The notes under the pieces: model-generated
The model's database searches: none
What the model saw: the letters and a program-made list of their open reading frames with translations, nothing else
Told to the model about the DNA's origin: nothing
Program-made: the position numbers and the translations under genes
Source: a virus
Taxonomy: Duplodnaviria > Heunggongvirae > Uroviricota > Caudoviricetes
Virus record (IMG/VR): IMGVR_UViG_2778261642_000006
Length of the DNA stretch: 42,980 nt
Reading direction: 5' to 3' (one strand)
Shown here: one piece after another, positions 19,046 through 24,541 of the stretch
How positions within the stretch are numbered: the first letter of the stretch is position 1
How the letters are laid out: each line of letters begins with the position of its first letter

Positions 19046-19558
19046 ATGAAAGAAATAAAATTAACGCCAGAAATGGTGCTTTCTGTTGTTGATTACAATC
19101 CATCGTCAGGCGACTTTCACTGGAGATGGAGGCAGGGGAGAGAGAGGACCACTTTGACATGGAACTCTCGTTTTGCTTTCAAGAAATGCTCATCAATAAA
19201 TTCTGATGGGTATTTAATGATTATGATTAATGGTAAAGCATACCCTGCTCACAGACTGGCATGGTTGATTGTTTATGGCACCATGCCCGATGGTTTTATT
19301 GATCACATCAACAGGGTAAGAACAGATAACCGGATATCAAATCTTCGTCTTGTCACTCATTCCGAAAATATGCAAAACAGGAAAATTCAGAAGAATAATA
19401 AATCTGGATACCGTGGCGTGTCTTGGGATGCTAAGTACGGGAAATGGAGAGCAAGAATTAATGCGTCTGGAAAGTGTATTAACCTTGGATACCATGACAC
19501 TGCCGAACTTGCCGCTGCGGCTTTTGAGGCAGCCAGAATGAAATATCATACCGTTTAA
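19046..19558 (+). CDS. HNH endonuclease with AP2-like domain (paralogue of 16347..16913)
   Basis: 170 aa; shares HNH block (…IDHINRVRTDNRISNLR…) and AP2-like block (…SGYRGVSWDAKYGKWRARINASGKCINLGYH…) with the ninG-associated copy. Confidence 0.8.
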   Translation: MKEIKLTPEMVLSVVDYNPSSGDFHWRWRQGRERTTLTWNSRFAFKKCSSINSDGYLMIMINGKAYPAHRLAWLIVYGTMPDGFIDHINRVRTDNRISNLRLVTHSENMQNRKIQKNNKSGYRGVSWDAKYGKWRARINASGKCINLGYHDTAELAAAAFEAARMKYHTV

Positions 19559-19612
19559 AGATGTAAGCTGCCGTTAGTGACTCTTAAGTTGCAACGGTGG
19601 CTTTTTTTATTT

Positions 19613-19687
19613 GGGTCAGTCGTATAAAGGTCATTACGGAAGGCTGTTAACCTTCTTATCGTGGTTCGAGTCCACGCTGTCCCGCCA
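19613..19687 (+). tRNA. tRNA-like gene, anticodon GUU (Asn) by manual folding
   Basis: Acceptor GGGTCAG/CTGTCCC (1 mismatch), weak D-stem, anticodon arm GAAGG-CTGTTAA-CCTTC, T-arm CGTGG-TTCGAGT-CCACG, discriminator G, CCA. Confidence 0.5.
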
Positions 19688-19692
19688 AATAT

Positions 19693-19768
19693 GCTGGTTT
19701 AGCTCCAATGGTAGAGCAGTCGCCTTGTAAGCGAATGGGTAGCGGTTCAAGTCCGTTAACCAGCACCA
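19693..19768 (+). tRNA. tRNA, anticodon UGU (Thr) by manual folding
   Basis: 76 nt; acceptor GCTGGTT/AACCAGC, D-arm GCTC…GAGC, anticodon loop CTTGTAA, T-loop TTCAAGT, discriminator A, CCA. Confidence 0.6.
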
Positions 19769-20011
19769 TAACTGAGCCGTAGCCACTGGCTATCCTGAAT
19801 TCATCAGTGATAGTTATGCTGCGGCCTTCTACACATGACCATCGTGAAAGCGGGTGGCAAGAGGCTGCGCTAACAACCTCCTGCCGTTTTGCCCGTGCAT
19901 ATCGGTCACGAACAAATCTGATTACTAAACACAGTAGCCTGGATTTGTTCTATCAGTAATCGACCTTATTCCTAATTAAATAGAGCAAATCCCCTTATTG
20001 GGGGGTAAGAC

Positions 20012-20335
20012 ATGAAGATGCCAGAAAAACATGACCTGTTAGCCGCCATTCTCGCGGCAAAGGAACAAGGCATCGGGGCAATCCTTGCGTTTGCAATGGC
20101 GTACCTTCGCGGCAGATACAATGGTGGTGCGTTTACAAAAACAGTAATCGACGCAACGATGTGCGCCATTATCGCCTGGTTCATTCGTGACCTTCTCGAC
20201 TTCGCCGGACTAAGTAGCAATCTCGCTTATATAACGAGCGTGTTCATCGGCTACATCGGTACTGACTCGATTGGTTCGCTTATCAAACGCTTCGCTGCTA
20301 AAAAAGCCGGAGTAGAAGATGGTGGAAATCAATAA
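20012..20335 (+). CDS. S: Holin S (lambda S107/S105 dual start)
   Basis: [34 protein letters not shown]… essentially identical to recalled lambda S. Confidence 0.95.
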
Positions 20336-20795
20336 TCAACGTAAGGCGTTCCTCGATATGCTGGCGTGGTCAGAGGGAACTGATAACGGACGTCAGAAAA
20401 CCAGAAATCATGGTTATGACGTCATTGTAGGTGGTGAGCTATTCACTGATTACTCCGATCACCCTCGTAAACTTGTCACGCTAAACCCCAAACTCAAATC
20501 AACAGCAGCCGGACGCTACCAGCTTCTTTCCCGTTGGTGGGATGCCTATCGTAAGCAGCTTGGCCTGAAAGACTTCTCTCCGAAAAGCCAGGACGCTGTG
20601 GCACTGCAACAGATTAAAGAGCGTGGCGCTTTACCGATGATTGATCGCGGTGATATCCGTCAGGCAATCGACCGTTGCAGCAATATCTGGGCTTCACTGC
20701 CGGGCGCTGGTTATGGTCAGTTCGAGCATAAGGCTGACAACCTGATTGCAAAATTCAAAGAAGCAGGCGGAACGGTCAGAGAGATTGAGGTATGA
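20319..20795 (+). CDS. R: Endolysin R (lytic transglycosylase)
   Basis: [51 protein letters not shown]… matches recalled lambda R. Confidence 0.95.
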
Positions 20796-21259
20796 GCAGA
20801 GTCACCGCGATTATCTCCGCTCTGGTTATCTGCATCATCGTCTGCCTGTCGTGGGTTGTTAATCATTACCGTGATAACGCCATCGCCTACAAGGAGCAGC
20901 GCGATAAAAAAGTCAGAGAGCTGAAGCAGGCGACTGCCACCATTACTGACATGCAGCAGCGCCAGCGCGATGCTGATGCACTCGATGCTAAATACACGAA
21001 GGAGTTAGCTGATGCGAAAGCTGAAAATGATGCTCTTCGGCGCAAGCTTGATAATGGTGGCAGGGTGCTCGTCAAAGGAAAATGCCCTGTGCCATCCTCA
21101 GACGAAACCTCCAGCGCCTCCGGCATGGGCAATGATGCCACCGTCGAACTCTCTCCAGTTGCTGGACGAAACGTTCTCGGTATCCGGGACGGAATTATCC
21201 GCGACCAAACAGCACTGAGAACGCTTCAGGAGTACATCAGGACGCAATGCCTTCGATGA
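20792..21259 (+). CDS. Rz: Spanin inner-membrane subunit Rz
   Basis: [34 protein letters not shown]… matches recalled lambda Rz N-terminus; C-terminus diverges. Confidence 0.9.
21012..21218 (+). CDS. Rz1: Spanin outer-membrane lipoprotein Rz1 (embedded in Rz, +1 frame)
   Basis: [21 protein letters not shown]… lipobox followed by proline-rich region, entirely within Rz. Confidence 0.8.
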
Positions 21260-21480
21260 TAGCGATAATTTTACTCATCATCCTTCACATCTGGCTCTGT
21301 AGACAGGGTGGTGATCACTTCTGGAGTAAATCCAGATTAAACATCTCATTGCTGATGCTTGATATTGAGCATCTGGCGCGCGGTAAGGGGCTGCGTTGAG
21401 ATAAGAGCCAGTCATCACAAACACCAGGATTTAGCCTCGCATTCGCGGGGTTTTTTATTCCCAACTCCATAGGTAATTTT

Positions 21481-21960
21481 ATGACCCAGCATATTGGCGT
21501 AAAACTGATTAACGCCTTTCCGATGACGAGACAGGCATATAACGATTTTCGTGGCTGGCAGCTTCCTGCCGGAGAAAACGGCGAGGACGAAGGCTATCTG
21601 GTTGAATATCTGGATGGCGGAAAACCTAACACCGATCGCTTTGATGGCTACGTTAGCTGGAGTCCAAAAGAAGTATTCGAAAAGGCTTATCGTCCGGTAT
21701 CAGGGTTAAGTTTCGGCCTTGCCATGGAAGCGTTAAAACAGGGCAAAAGTTTGCAGCGGGCAGGATGGAATGGGAAAGACCAGTTTGTTTATCTCGTGAA
21801 AGGGGAAAAATTAGCGTCTGCGTTGGGTTATGGCTTTGGCGAATATGTTGGCGAGCCAACTTTCAATGACACGCTTGTATTGAAAAACTCACAGAACCGC
21901 CTTGCTACATGGGTTCCATCCATTGGCGACCTGATGGCTGAAGACTGGCAAATCATTTAA
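21481..21960 (+). CDS. Hypothetical protein, C-terminal half DUF2829-like (possible Tad2-like)
   Basis: 159 aa; …AMEALKQGKSLQRAGWNGKDQFVYLV…WVPSIGDLMAEDWQII resembles my recollection of the DUF2829 pattern; N-terminal ~70 aa unassigned. Confidence 0.45.
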   Translation: MTQHIGVKLINAFPMTRQAYNDFRGWQLPAGENGEDEGYLVEYLDGGKPNTDRFDGYVSWSPKEVFEKAYRPVSGLSFGLAMEALKQGKSLQRAGWNGKDQFVYLVKGEKLASALGYGFGEYVGEPTFNDTLVLKNSQNRLATWVPSIGDLMAEDWQII

Positions 21961-22263
21961 CCATGTAGGCATTACAAAGCCTATCTACGGGTGGGCTTGA
22001 TAATGAAACCGGAGTTAATTTCTGGTCACTAATTAACGGCAGTACAGCGAAACAACCCAAGCCAGTAAGTGGGGAAATAACACTGGCAGCCACTGAAAGA
22101 TGAACCTCCAGCCTTATGGCAAAAAAGATTCTTTGTGGTGGCGGACTGATGGAAAGACATCGGTTATTGCAGAGGCCATTCAATGAATGGTCTCGACAAT
22201 GGCTTATACCCTACACGGGATAACTTAACTGATATCCCTTTTAACGGATAAACGGAGCCAACA

Positions 22264-22506
22264 ATGGCAGAGATTATTCCCATGACTGAAGAACAGAAAT
22301 TCCAGTTAGAGATTTACAAGCTGGTCATGAACCAGAGCGCAGCCGCAGAGGAAGCATTTCAATTCATCGGCACTGACGCGTTGAAGCTTGAGCTATTCAA
22401 AATTCACTTCCAGTCAGGCGGCGCTAATTCAGATATCACGACCCGCACAATCGAAGCGGTGCGTAAATCGAAGGAAGCGTTAGACCTGTTCACCACCGGA
22501 GCATGA
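22264..22506 (+). CDS. Hypothetical protein
   Basis: 80-aa ORF upstream of terminase genes. Confidence 0.45.
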   Translation: MAEIIPMTEEQKFQLEIYKLVMNQSAAAEEAFQFIGTDALKLELFKIHFQSGGANSDITTRTIEAVRKSKEALDLFTTGA

Positions 22507-22507
22507 T

Positions 22508-22699
22508 GTGAGTCGCGTAATAATTTTGGGTAAGGAGAAGAAATTCCCAATTACTCAAGAGCTATACGAGAGGCTGGAAAGCGTCATCCATGATTATGGT
22601 GAAATCAGTGTATGTGAGGCGATTGGTACACTCGAATTGCTGAAGCAGTCATTGATTGAAAGCATGAAGAGCCAACGACCTGAAATGACAATTAAGTGA
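22508..22699 (+). CDS. Hypothetical protein
   Basis: 63-aa ORF starting 2 nt after the upstream stop. Confidence 0.45.
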   Translation: MSRVIILGKEKKFPITQELYERLESVIHDYGEISVCEAIGTLELLKQSLIESMKSQRPEMTIK

Positions 22700-22706
22700 G
22701 ATGAAT

Positions 22707-23129
22707 ATGGCGACTGAACCAAAAGCTGGTCGCCCCTCTGATTATATGCCGGAGGTGGCTGACGATATCTGCTCGTTGCTTTCTTCTGGCGAGAGCTTGC
22801 TGAAAGTATGCAGGCGCCCAGGTATGCCGGATAAGTCCACTGTTTTCCGCTGGTTGGCAAAGCATGAGGATTTTCGCGACAAGTACGCGAAGGCAACTGA
22901 GGCACGAGCTGATTCTATTTTCGAAGAGATATTCGAAATTGCTGACAATGCGATTCCAGATGCTGCTGAGGTGGCAAAGGCAAGACTTCGCGTTGATACC
23001 CGCAAATGGGCGCTGGCCAGAATGAATCCCCGTAAGTATGGCGACAAGGTAACTAACGAGCTTGTCGGTAAGGACGGCGGCGCAATCCAGATTGAAACAT
23101 CACCGATGAGTACTCTATTCGGAAAATGA
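22707..23129 (+). CDS. Terminase small subunit
   Basis: 140 aa from MATEPKAGRPSDYMPEVADDICSLLSSGESLLKVCRRPGMPDKSTVFRWL… (HTH-like); directly upstream of large terminase with overlapping stop/start. Confidence 0.7.
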   Translation: MATEPKAGRPSDYMPEVADDICSLLSSGESLLKVCRRPGMPDKSTVFRWLAKHEDFRDKYAKATEARADSIFEEIFEIADNAIPDAAEVAKARLRVDTRKWALARMNPRKYGDKVTNELVGKDGGAIQIETSPMSTLFGK

Positions 23130-24541
23130 CCTCGATTAATCCTATCTTTGAACCGTTCATTGAGGCGCATCGCTACAAAGTCGCCAAAGGCGGTCGAGGT
23201 AGCGGTAAGTCATGGGCAATTGCGAGGCTGCTTGTTGAAGCGGCGCGTCGGCAGCCAGTGCGTATTCTCTGCGCTCGTGAACTGCAAAACAGTATCAGCG
23301 ATTCGGTAATCAGGTTACTTGAAGATACCATCGAGCGGGAAGGGTATTCGGCTGAGTTTGAAATTCAGCGTTCCATGATTCGTCATCTCGGAACGAATGC
23401 TGAATTCATGTTCTACGGCATCAAAAACAACCCGACGAAGATTAAATCGCTCGAAGGCATTGATATCTGCTGGGTGGAAGAAGCGGAAGCGGTAACGAAG
23501 GAATCATGGGATATCCTGATACCAACCATCCGCAAGCCATTTTCCGAAATATGGGTGAGCTTTAACCCGAAAAACATCCTCGACGATACCTATCAGCGAT
23601 TCGTCGTAAATCCTCCAGATGATATTTGCCTGCTGACGGTGAACTACACCGACAACCCGCACTTTCCTGAAGTTCTCCGTCTGGAGATGGAAGAGTGTAA
23701 ACGCAGAAATCCGACCCTGTATCGTCACATCTGGCTTGGTGAGCCAGTGAGCGCAAGTGATATGGCAATCATCAAACGTGAATGGCTTGAAGCCGCAACC
23801 GATGCGCACAAGAAACTAGGATGGAAAGCGAAAGGCGCTGTTGTTTCTGCACATGACCCGTCAGATACAGGGCCGGATGCTAAAGGTTATGCATCGCGTC
23901 ACGGTTCGGTTGTTAAGCGCATTGCCGAAGGTCTGCTGATGGACATCAACGAGGGTGCTGACTGGGCTACTTCGCTGGCGATTGAAGACGGCGCTGACCA
24001 TTACCTGTGGGATGGTGATGGTGTTGGTGCCGGGCTACGCAGACAGACAACGGAAGCGTTCTCCGGCAAGAAAATCACCGCCACGATGTTCAAGGGCAGC
24101 GAATCGCCATTCGATGAAGATGCACCGTATCAGGCCGGAGCATGGGCTGATGAAGTCGTACAGGGCGACAACGTTCGCACTATTGGCGATGTATTCCGCA
24201 ATAAGCGAGCGTAATTCTATTACGCGCTGGCTGACAGGCTGTATCTGACATATCGGGCGGTTGTTCACGGTGAGTATGCAGACCCAGACGACATGCTGAG
24301 TTTCGACAAAGAAGCGATAGGCGAGAAGATGCTGGAGAAGCTGTTTGCAGAACTGACGCAGATTCAGCGCAAATTCAATAACAACGGGAAGCTGGAGCTT
24401 ATGACTAAGGTCGAAATGAAGCAGAAGCTCGGTATTCCATCTCCTAACCTGGCTGATGCACTGATGATGTGTATGCATTGCCCGGAGTCGGCTGCGCAAC
24501 CCGACTATTCCAGTTACTCAATTCCTTGTGGTGTAGGTTGA
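23126..24541 (+). pseudogene. Terminase large subunit interrupted by in-frame TAA at 24212..24214
   Basis: Walker A VAKGGRGSGKS; 362-aa ORF ends at TAA, and the same frame continues without frameshift (FYYALADRLYLTYRAVVHGEYADPDDMLSFDKEAIG…) to 24541, 2 nt before the portal start. Confidence 0.7.

What the first reader, a model, noticed from the sequence alone, without database searches (positions are those of the whole stretch)
21481..21960. Possible DUF2829 (Tad2-like) protein downstream of the lysis cassette
The C-terminal half (…AMEALKQGKSLQRAGWNGKDQFVYLV…WVPSIGDLMAEDWQII) matches my recollection of the DUF2829 pattern, the family that includes the Thoeris anti-defence sponge Tad2. It carries an extra ~70-aa N-terminal domain of unknown function. 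If correct, this is a candidate anti-defence gene.
Basis: inference. Interest (0 to 1): 0.55.

Follow-up and report, generated by a model that had tools for sequence, protein, structure and literature searches.

The report
Two-domain Tad2-type phage signal sponge
This prophage gene encodes a relative of Tad2, a phage protein that soaks up the alarm molecules of the bacterial Thoeris defence; it is fused to a small, very conserved module of unknown role that phages also attach to at least three other families of such sponge proteins.

Summary
The ORF is real (21481-21960, +, 159 aa). Residues 76-159 are a clear Tad2/DUF2829 domain:
- Pfam PF11195 scores 78 bits against a cut-off of 25.
- It is 48% identical to SPO1 Tad2, aligned without gaps.
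- The predicted secondary structure matches the published topology.
- The five main gcADPR contacts (W96, N97, W144, S147, D150) are invariant in 45 homologues.

Four peripheral pocket residues differ, including the adenine-contacting Thr (here G149), so the exact ligand is uncertain.

RefSeq already labels the protein "DUF2829 domain-containing", and phage N4 "gp49" has the same architecture, so this is a new member of a known kind.

The added value is the N-terminal 72 aa. It has no Pfam family and no convincing match among solved folds. It is homologous to the N-terminal domain of the RyR Tad sponge, which forms a domain-swapped dimer in the crystal structure. It is also fused to Tad2, Sequestin and Acb4. 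In the Pfam scan of 150 family representatives there were 105 sponge-domain matches; in my per-protein assignment 99 of the 150 carry a sponge domain. It also occurs alone, and it is more conserved than the Tad2 domain. Its function is open.

Sibling prophages carry an Acb4 gene right after this one. The window lacks it cleanly.

The parts
21481..21960 (+). Complete ORF, 159 aa plus stop; identical to RefSeq WP_000191869.1 'DUF2829 domain-containing protein'
21481..21696 (+). N-terminal module (aa 1-72), predicted beta-alpha-beta-beta-alpha, no Pfam family; homologous to the N-terminal domain of RyR Tad gp68
   Evidence: AF2 pLDDT 94.9; hhalign probability 97%, E = 5e-11 against gp68; 2,726 representative clusters; PHROG 872/9467/32732
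21697..21705 (+). Short linker (aa 73-75, VSG) between the two domains
   Evidence: Domain boundaries
21706..21957 (+). Tad2-like (DUF2829, PF11195) domain, aa 76-159, short-insert SPO1 type
21766..21771 (+). Codons W96-N97, equivalent to SPO1 Tad2 W25-N26 (van der Waals and phosphate/hydroxyl contacts to gcADPR); invariant in 45 homologues
21910..21930 (+). Codons W144...S147, G149, D150, equivalent to SPO1 W73, S76, T78, D79. W, S and D are invariant; the adenine-contacting Thr is Gly here
21779..21934 (+). Segment (codons ~100-151) replaced in phage Huey by a divergent, longer-insert Tad2 allele, while the N-module and both flanks stay 95-99% identical
21433..21462 (+). Terminator-like hairpin plus T-run just upstream of the gene; no sigma-70-like + strand promoter was found in 19500-22800
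   Evidence: consensus scan only
22161..22163 (+). Empty site where sibling prophages carry a 413-bp cassette encoding an Acb4 (PF13876, 'Gp49 family') sponge
20012..21259 (+). Upstream lysis cassette (holin, GH24 endolysin, Rz/Rz1), context only
22264..22506 (+). DUF2560 gene (hkbM-like), conserved downstream boundary of the variable slot, context only

Best explanation
The gene encodes a two-domain nucleotide-signal sponge of a P22-like (Lederbergvirus-type) E. coli prophage. The C-terminal Tad2 domain most likely assembles into the family's homotetramer. Its pockets between protomers would sequester a TIR-produced ADP-ribose-derived alarm signal, most probably 3'cADPR (1''-3' gcADPR) of type I Thoeris, so the effector is never activated. 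The N-terminal 72-aa module most likely acts as a dimerising accessory handle, as it does in the RyR Tad crystal structure. That would be compatible with even-numbered sponge oligomers. The gene sits in a variable accessory slot between the lysis and packaging genes and is probably transcribed with the late operon. Shown here: the homology, the predicted fold, the conservation of pocket residues, the fusion pattern of the module and the variability of the slot. Inferred: oligomeric state, ligand identity, the module's role and expression timing.
For: Tad2 domain:
- Pfam PF11195 scores 78 bits against a cut-off of 25.
- SPO1 Tad2 matches at E = 3e-26 and is 48% identical over 85 ungapped residues.
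- The AF2 model (pLDDT 90.7) has helix, strands and short helices in the published Tad2 order.
- SPO1 contacts W25, N26, W73, S76 and D79 correspond to W96, N97, W144, S147 and D150, all invariant in 45 two-domain homologues.

N-terminal module:
- It is homologous to the gp68 N-domain (BLASTP E = 2e-6; hhalign 97%, E = 5e-11).
- That domain is a domain-swapped dimer in the crystal structure. It is dispensable for anti-Thoeris I activity when gp68 fragments are overexpressed.
- It is fused to Tad2 (window; N4 'gp49'), Acb4 (crAssphage gp41, Clostridium phage), Sequestin and RyR Tad.
- In 150 representatives, Pfam finds Tad2 in 48, Sequestin in 41, Acb4 in 15 and an Acb2/Tad1 hairpin in 1.

Context:
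- Siblings carry Acb4 next to this gene, and phage N4 has the same pair.
- The slot holds different accessory genes in relatives.
- Capsid proteins are implicated as type I Thoeris triggers, which fits late co-expression.
Against: - No experiment exists for this protein.
- Four secondary pocket positions differ from SPO1 Tad2 (T65N, D67Q, H71A, T78G). T78 gives the only direct hydrogen bond to adenine.
- Tad2 homologues are known to bind His-ADPR, N7-cADPR, cUMP/cCMP or cyclic dinucleotides instead of, or in addition to, 3'cADPR.
- A pure dimerisation handle does not explain why the module is more conserved than the sponge domain (68% against 56% mean pairwise identity).
- It also does not explain why the module exists as a free-standing gene with no recognisable sponge gene adjacent.
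- Tetramer formation was not modelled.
- The prophage has a nonsense codon in TerL, so the gene may not currently be used in a productive cycle.
Confidence: 0.75

Rival explanations
1. The N-terminal module is not just a dimerisation handle. It is an autonomous anti-defence unit: a further sponge for an untested signal, or a binder of a host immune protein. That would make this a dual-function fusion like the Tad2-Acb4 and Tad2-Sequestin fusions.
For: - Sponge domains are typically fused to other sponge domains, and this logic led to the discovery of Sequestin.
- The module occurs alone in the N4-like anti-signalling hotspot of Erwinia phage phiEaP8.
- It also occurs alone on several long phage contigs without a recognisable sponge neighbour.
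- 13 of 150 representatives are stand-alone.
- It is more conserved than the Tad2 domain, with about 25 nearly invariant aromatic or charged positions across 150 representatives.
- It has no Pfam family, so the Pfam-based fusion screen could not have seen it.
Against: - gp68_N alone had no activity against type I Thoeris.
- The module is acidic (pI 4.9), whereas known sponge pockets are positively charged.
- There is never more than one copy per chain, and it almost always directly precedes a sponge domain. That looks more like an accessory element.
- No structural similarity to any solved sponge was found.
Confidence: 0.3
2. The Tad2 domain is retargeted. It sequesters a signal other than 3'cADPR, such as His-ADPR (type II Thoeris), N7-cADPR (type IV Thoeris) or a Pycsar/CBASS nucleotide.
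For: - Peripheral pocket residues differ: G149 in place of T78, A142 in place of H71 (the same as ModTad2 A71), N136 and Q138.
- Tad2 homologues with these alternative specificities exist.
- Two residue states (Gly or Thr/Ser at position 149) segregate among the two-domain homologues.
Against: - The closest characterised relative by far is SPO1 Tad2 (E = 3e-26 against 1.6e-18 for ModTad2).
- SPO1 Tad2 binds gcADPR and not the cyclic nucleotides tested, and it does not inhibit type II Thoeris.
- The insert between beta2 and beta3 has the short SPO1 length, so the cyclic-dinucleotide pocket built by long inserts is unlikely.
- The gcADPR site is reported as conserved in about 99% of Tad2 proteins.
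Confidence: 0.25
3. It is an anti-CRISPR (AcrIIA7-like), as the automatic annotation of the homologue in phage Huey says.
For: DUF2829 was first linked to AcrIIA7. There is weak similarity to AcrIIA7 chains (E = 1.6e-5 to 4e-6, limited to aa 76-111). The Huey homologue is labelled 'anti-CRISPR protein'.
Against: The literature reinterprets DUF2829 proteins as sponges. Binding to Cas9 was never shown, and AcrIIA7 itself (HgmTad2) binds gcADPR and cyclic dinucleotides. The same pipeline also labels the unrelated Acb4 gene 'anti-CRISPR'. From general knowledge, E. coli has no type II CRISPR-Cas.
Confidence: 0.03
4. It is a decaying, non-functional passenger gene in a defective prophage.
For: TerL carries an in-frame TAA, so the prophage may be unable to package DNA.
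Against: The ORF is intact and identical in other E. coli genomes. All family-invariant residues of both domains are retained. Near-identical copies exist in isolated, viable phages (HZ41, Kapi1).
Confidence: 0.05

Closest known systems
SPO1 Tad2 (Gp34.65; PDB 8SME/8SMF/8WJE), Thoeris anti-defence 2
   Same: 48% identity over the whole 85-residue domain without gaps. Same short beta2-beta3 insert length and same predicted secondary-structure order. The principal gcADPR contacts W25, N26, W73, S76 and D79 are conserved.
   Different: SPO1 Tad2 is a single-domain 89-aa protein of a Bacillus myophage. The window protein adds a 72-aa N-terminal module. It changes T65N, D67Q, H71A and T78G, and has L115 in place of the pocket-occluding F44.
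Phage N4 'gp49' (GenBank EF056009, 160 aa) and other two-domain DUF2829 proteins of N4-like, P22-like and Pseudomonas phages
   Same: Identical architecture (module plus Tad2-like). The module is 54% identical. It is adjacent to an Acb4 (PF13876) gene, as in the window's sibling prophages.
   Different: N4 gp49 has a different insert in the Tad2 domain. It lies in the hotspot beside the virion RNA polymerase, not after the lysis genes. I found no experimental test of it in the held literature.
RyR Tad (gp68 of Pectobacterium phage vB_PatP_CB1)
   Same: Homologous N-terminal module (34% identity; hhalign 97%, E = 5e-11), followed by a gcADPR-binding sponge domain. Same two-domain logic.
   Different: The C-terminal domain is an all-helical RyR Repeat12-like fold forming dimers, unrelated to Tad2. 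The gp68 module is a divergent, shorter version lacking the GGKPN loop.
Sponge-sponge fusions (Tad2-Acb4, Tad2-Sequestin, Acb4-Sequestin)
   Same: Multi-domain chains of small sponge units in phages. The module is found inside such chains, for example Acb4-module-Sequestin and module-Sequestin-Tad2.
   Different: In those fusions every unit is a demonstrated sponge. The module has no demonstrated ligand, and the one fragment tested was inactive against type I Thoeris.
ModTad2 / HgmTad2 (AcrIIA7) / SptTad2
   Same: Same Pfam family and tetrameric fold. ModTad2 shares A at the H71 position.
   Different: They are more distant (E = 1.6e-18 to 4e-6). Those proteins have extended or long inserts forming a second pocket for cyclic nucleotides. 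The window protein has the short SPO1-type insert, and the Huey allele is closer to ModTad2.

Membership tests
Tad2 / DUF2829 (Pfam PF11195) | Match to the curated family profile above its gathering score | tested here: met
   78.3 bits against a cut-off of 25, profile positions 2-73 of 73, aa 77-159
Tad2 / DUF2829 (Pfam PF11195) | Full-domain homology to an experimentally validated member | tested here: met
   SPO1 Tad2 E = 3e-26, 41 of 85 identical, no gaps; ModTad2 E = 1.6e-18
Tad2 / DUF2829 (Pfam PF11195) | Fold: N-terminal helix, then an antiparallel five-stranded sheet with short helices in the beta2-beta3 and beta4-beta5 loops | tested here: met
   AF2 model elements H78-86, E91-93, E102-106, H108-115, E131-135, E141-143, H148-152, E156-158 at pLDDT about 90, compared with the published description. 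No 3D superposition was run.
Tad2 / DUF2829 (Pfam PF11195) | Principal gcADPR-contact residues (SPO1 W25, N26, W73, D79, plus water-coordinating S76) | tested here: met
   W96, N97, W144, D150 and S147 are present and invariant in 45 homologues
Tad2 / DUF2829 (Pfam PF11195) | Secondary pocket residues (SPO1 I63, T65, D67, H71, T78) | tested here: not met
   L134 (conservative), N136, Q138, A142, G149. These positions also vary among validated Tad2 proteins (ModTad2: L, T, D, A, S), so they bear on specificity rather than membership.
Tad2 / DUF2829 (Pfam PF11195) | Homotetramer with pockets between protomers | not testable with these tools
Tad2 / DUF2829 (Pfam PF11195) | Sequesters a TIR-derived signal and relieves Thoeris defence | not testable with these tools
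   Requires biochemistry and phage assays
Sponge-associated N-terminal module (N-domain of RyR Tad gp68; PHROG 872 N-half, 9467, 32732) | Sequence or profile homology to the gp68 N-terminal domain | tested here: met
   BLASTP 34% identity, E = 2e-6; hhalign probability 97.1%, E = 5e-11; local HMM E = 9.5e-9
Sponge-associated N-terminal module (N-domain of RyR Tad gp68; PHROG 872 N-half, 9467, 32732) | Domain-swapped dimer through strand beta1 | not testable with these tools
   Described for gp68. The structure is not in the PDB copy searched, and no multimer modelling was available.
AcrIIA7-type anti-CRISPR | Inhibition of, or binding to, a type II CRISPR-Cas effector | not testable with these tools
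   Only the shared DUF2829 domain links them. The literature reinterprets the family as sponges.

The most novel reading that the evidence does not exclude
The N-terminal 72-aa module is a previously unnamed, autonomous anti-defence unit, either a new sponge or a binder of an immune protein. It is not a passive dimerisation handle. Its fusion partners that match no known family form a reservoir of undiscovered sponge families: 38 of 150 representatives, for example the 'DYAWAWHCNIAM' domain of Rhodoferax phage gp06. The module would then serve as bait for finding them, as its fusion to RyR Tad already illustrates.
Probability: 0.3. Interest if true: 0.7.

Novelty: new member of a known kind. 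Interest (0 to 1): 0.45.

Why it matters
For this locus, it identifies a probable anti-Thoeris gene in a common E. coli prophage type. It also shows that the slot between the lysis and packaging genes of P22-like phages is an anti-signalling island where Tad2 alleles and an Acb4 cassette are swapped in and out.

More generally, one small unnamed module precedes four unrelated sponge families and is under stronger constraint than the sponge domains themselves. That suggests sponges share a requirement not yet understood, such as assembly, stability, a second target, or evasion of sponge-sensing defences. It also offers a simple sequence handle for finding new sponge families that Pfam-based fusion screens cannot see.

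Tried and rejected
- **NCBIfam:** no informative hit for either domain.
- **Sequence search of the module against solved structures:** nothing significant; the best hit was E = 0.4.
- **AlphaFold-database fold library:** unavailable.
- **Supplementary tables of the 2025 sponge-diversity preprint:** searched for this sequence, nothing held.
- **Lockin, Acb5, TadIV-1:** considered as identities for the module and rejected on description. They are a larger beta-rich hexamer, an enzyme and a two-helix dimer respectively.
- **Split-gene idea:** I tested whether free-standing modules are halves of genes next to a sponge gene. Neighbours in phiEaP8 and on two metagenomic phage contigs match no Tad2, Sequestin or Acb4 profile.
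- **Own promoter:** none found on the + strand by the consensus scan.
- **Virion-packaging signal:** I considered this for the module. There is no evidence for it, and it was not pursued.

Full report
**Observation.** The window contains an ATG-initiated ORF at 21481-21960 on the + strand. It follows a lambda-type holin (20012-20335), a GH24 endolysin (20319-20795) and Rz/Rz1 (20792-21259 / 21012-21218). It precedes a DUF2560 gene (22264-22506), an Sf6-type small terminase (22701-23129) and the large terminase. The window is a P22-like (Lederbergvirus/HK620/Sf6-type) E. coli prophage. The 1.1-kb region is 100% identical to E. coli HB37, where RefSeq calls the product WP_000191869.1, 'DUF2829 domain-containing protein'. 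It is 97-99% identical to phages HZ41 and Kapi1. Only 29 of 5,426 complete E. coli genomes carry most of the region (≥80% of the 1.1-kb query), although the flanks occur in 2,636 genomes.

**The C-terminal domain is Tad2.**
- Pfam PF11195 (Tad2-like) matches aa 77-159 at 78.3 bits against a gathering score of 25.
- The best solved relatives are SPO1 Tad2 (Gp34.65, E = 3e-26), ModTad2 (E = 1.6e-18) and another Tad2 chain, 8v3e (E = 1.9e-18). SptTad2 and AcrIIA7/HgmTad2 are more distant.
- The alignment to SPO1 Tad2 is ungapped over 85 residues with 48% identity. The insert between beta2 and beta3 therefore has the short SPO1 length.
- The AlphaFold2 model (45-sequence alignment, pLDDT 90.7) has helix 78-86, strands 91-93 and 102-106, helix 108-115, strands 131-135 and 141-143, helix 148-152 and strand 156-158. 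That is the published Tad2 order of elements.

**Pocket residues.**
- The SPO1 Tad2-gcADPR structure uses W25, W73, N26 and D79 as main contacts. T78 gives the only hydrogen bond to adenine. I63 and T65 make non-polar contacts, and D67, H71 and S76 coordinate waters.
- These map to W96, W144, N97, D150, G149, L134, N136, Q138, A142 and S147.
- W96, N97, W144, S147 and D150 are invariant in 45 two-domain homologues. Position 149 is Thr in 25, Gly in 11 and Ser in 9.
- The core of the pocket is therefore intact while the adenine side is remodelled.
- Tad2 homologues are known that bind His-ADPR, N7-cADPR, cUMP/cCMP or cyclic dinucleotides. I therefore treat 3'cADPR as the most likely ligand, not an established one.
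- A second cyclic-dinucleotide pocket requires a long insert. The window protein lacks one.

**The N-terminal module.**
- Residues 1-72 have no Pfam or NCBIfam match.
- The module hits the N-terminal parts of PHROGs 872, 9467, 32732 and 18865.
- It is predicted with high confidence (pLDDT 94.9) as beta-alpha-beta-beta-alpha.
- Among predicted viral structures it recurs in uncharacterised proteins of varied length, including a RyR-domain protein of Yersinia phage TG1.
- A June 2026 preprint describes gp68 of Pectobacterium phage CB1 ('RyR Tad') as a two-domain gcADPR sponge. [quoted passage not shown] It forms a domain-swapped dimer in the crystal. It is inactive alone against type I Thoeris, whereas the C-domain alone suffices.
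- I fetched gp68 and found its N-domain homologous to the module here: BLASTP 34% identity, E = 2e-6; hhalign probability 97%, E = 5e-11; local HMM E = 9.5e-9.

**Fusion pattern of the module.** The same module precedes four validated sponge families:
- Tad2: the window protein; N4 'gp49' in EF056009; many Enterobacterales prophages; Pseudomonas phage Skulduggery.
- Sequestin, PF21825.
- Acb4, PF13876: crAssphage KP06_gp41 and Clostridium phage vB_CpeS-1181.
- RyR Tad.

An exhaustive profile search finds 2,726 representative clusters at E ≤ 0.001. Of the best 150 representatives, Pfam finds Tad2 in 48, Sequestin in 41, Acb4 in 15 and an Acb2/Tad1 hairpin in 1. My per-protein assignment gives these results:
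- 13 are stand-alone.
- 38 have only a partner of ≥45 aa that matches none of my local Tad2, Sequestin or Acb4 profiles.
- The remaining 99 carry at least one sponge domain.
- Several are three-unit chains, such as Acb4-module-Sequestin or module-Sequestin-Tad2.
- There is never more than one module per chain.

Most unassigned partners are singletons at BLAST level. One groups with the RyR Tad C-domain, and a small group shares a 'DYAWAWHCNIAM' motif with Rhodoferax phage gp06.

Within the 45 two-domain homologues the module is more conserved than the Tad2 domain: 68% against 56% mean pairwise identity, with 20 against 11 invariant positions.

Free-standing copies lie in phage genomes without a recognisable sponge neighbour. 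One is beside the virion RNA polymerase of Erwinia phage phiEaP8, the N4-like anti-signalling hotspot.

**Locus dynamics.**
- In relatives the slot between Rz and DUF2560 holds Rha, KilA-N, GIY-YIG or DUF2829 genes.
- Sibling prophages and phage Huey carry a 413-bp cassette with an Acb4 gene right after the Tad2-like gene. The window lacks exactly this segment, at 22161/22163.
- Phage N4 has the same Acb4 plus module-Tad2 pair.
- In Huey only codons ~100-151 of the Tad2 domain are replaced, by a longer-insert allele closer to ModTad2. The module and the flanks stay nearly identical. This indicates recombination that exchanges the specificity-determining part.

**Mechanism.**
- Most likely (about 0.75): a Tad2-type tetrameric sponge for a TIR-derived ADPR signal, with the module acting as a dimerising accessory element.
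- Expression is probably with the late operon. No + strand promoter was found, and a terminator-like hairpin lies upstream. This fits capsid-triggered Thoeris sensing, but it is inference.
- The module's stronger conservation and its autonomous copies are not explained by a mere handle. I therefore keep an autonomous anti-defence function as a serious rival (about 0.3).
- The anti-CRISPR label found in automatic annotations is outdated.

**Novelty.** The Tad2 assignment is correct but ordinary. The protein is already labelled DUF2829 in RefSeq, and the architecture is that of N4 gp49. I found no paper in the held library that describes the module's association with several sponge families. The only mention is the brief remark in the RyR Tad preprint. 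I rate the finding as a new member of a known kind, with moderate interest that comes from the module.

Noticed in passing
window 24212-24214 (within TerL 23126-24541): The large terminase gene has an in-frame TAA at codon 363. Phage Sf101 has CAA there (single C-to-T change), and the reading frame otherwise continues to the normal end just before the portal gene. The prophage is probably packaging-defective, unless this is a sequencing error.
   Followed up: partly
window 22161-22163; L003:2461-2873: A 413-bp cassette encoding an Acb4 sponge (PF13876, annotated 'Gp49 family protein') is present in sibling prophages and phage Huey and cleanly absent here. The slot behaves as an anti-signalling island.
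   Followed up: yes
window 21779-21934; L002:2056-2232: Phage Huey carries a different, longer-insert allele of only the central and C-terminal part of the Tad2 domain, in an otherwise 95-99% identical gene. This suggests recombinational exchange of the specificity-determining region.
   Followed up: partly
L004:2109-2962 (phage N4, EF056009): In this GenBank record 'gp48' is the PF13876/Acb4 protein and 'gp49' is the module-Tad2 protein, although Pfam names PF13876 after 'N4 Gp49'. The numbering mismatch can mislead annotation, for example 'Gp49 family protein'.
   Followed up: partly
L008:2341-2478 and L005:17794-18006: A small acidic protein (motif FLxEHWxxWEEH...EIYxxLGGE) is encoded next to the module gene in both Erwinia phage phiEaP8 and Pectobacterium phage CB1 (gp69). 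The two are 57% identical, E = 7e-13. Function unknown.
   Followed up: partly
L009:2501-3046 (Rhodoferax phage P26218 gp06); P0252, P0277: A recurrent C-terminal partner of the module, with the motif DYAWAWHCNIAM, matched none of the local Tad2, Sequestin or Acb4 profiles; P0252 and P0277 also had no Pfam partner hit in the 150-protein scan. By the fusion logic it is a candidate new sponge domain.
   Followed up: no
L002:1758-2258 and 2493-2873 (phage Huey): Automatic annotation labels both the Tad2-like gene and the unrelated Acb4 gene 'anti-CRISPR protein'. Both labels appear outdated.
   Followed up: yes
window 19046-19768: An HNH_3 plus AP2-domain ORF (19046-19558, homing-endonuclease-like) is followed by tRNA-Asn (19613-19687) and tRNA-Thr (19693-19768), just upstream of the lysis cassette.
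   Followed up: no
window 21247-21399: A 50-aa ORF with a hydrophobic N-terminus lies between Rz and the Tad2-like gene. RefSeq annotates it as a hypothetical protein (WP_001543881.1). It has no Pfam match.
   Followed up: no
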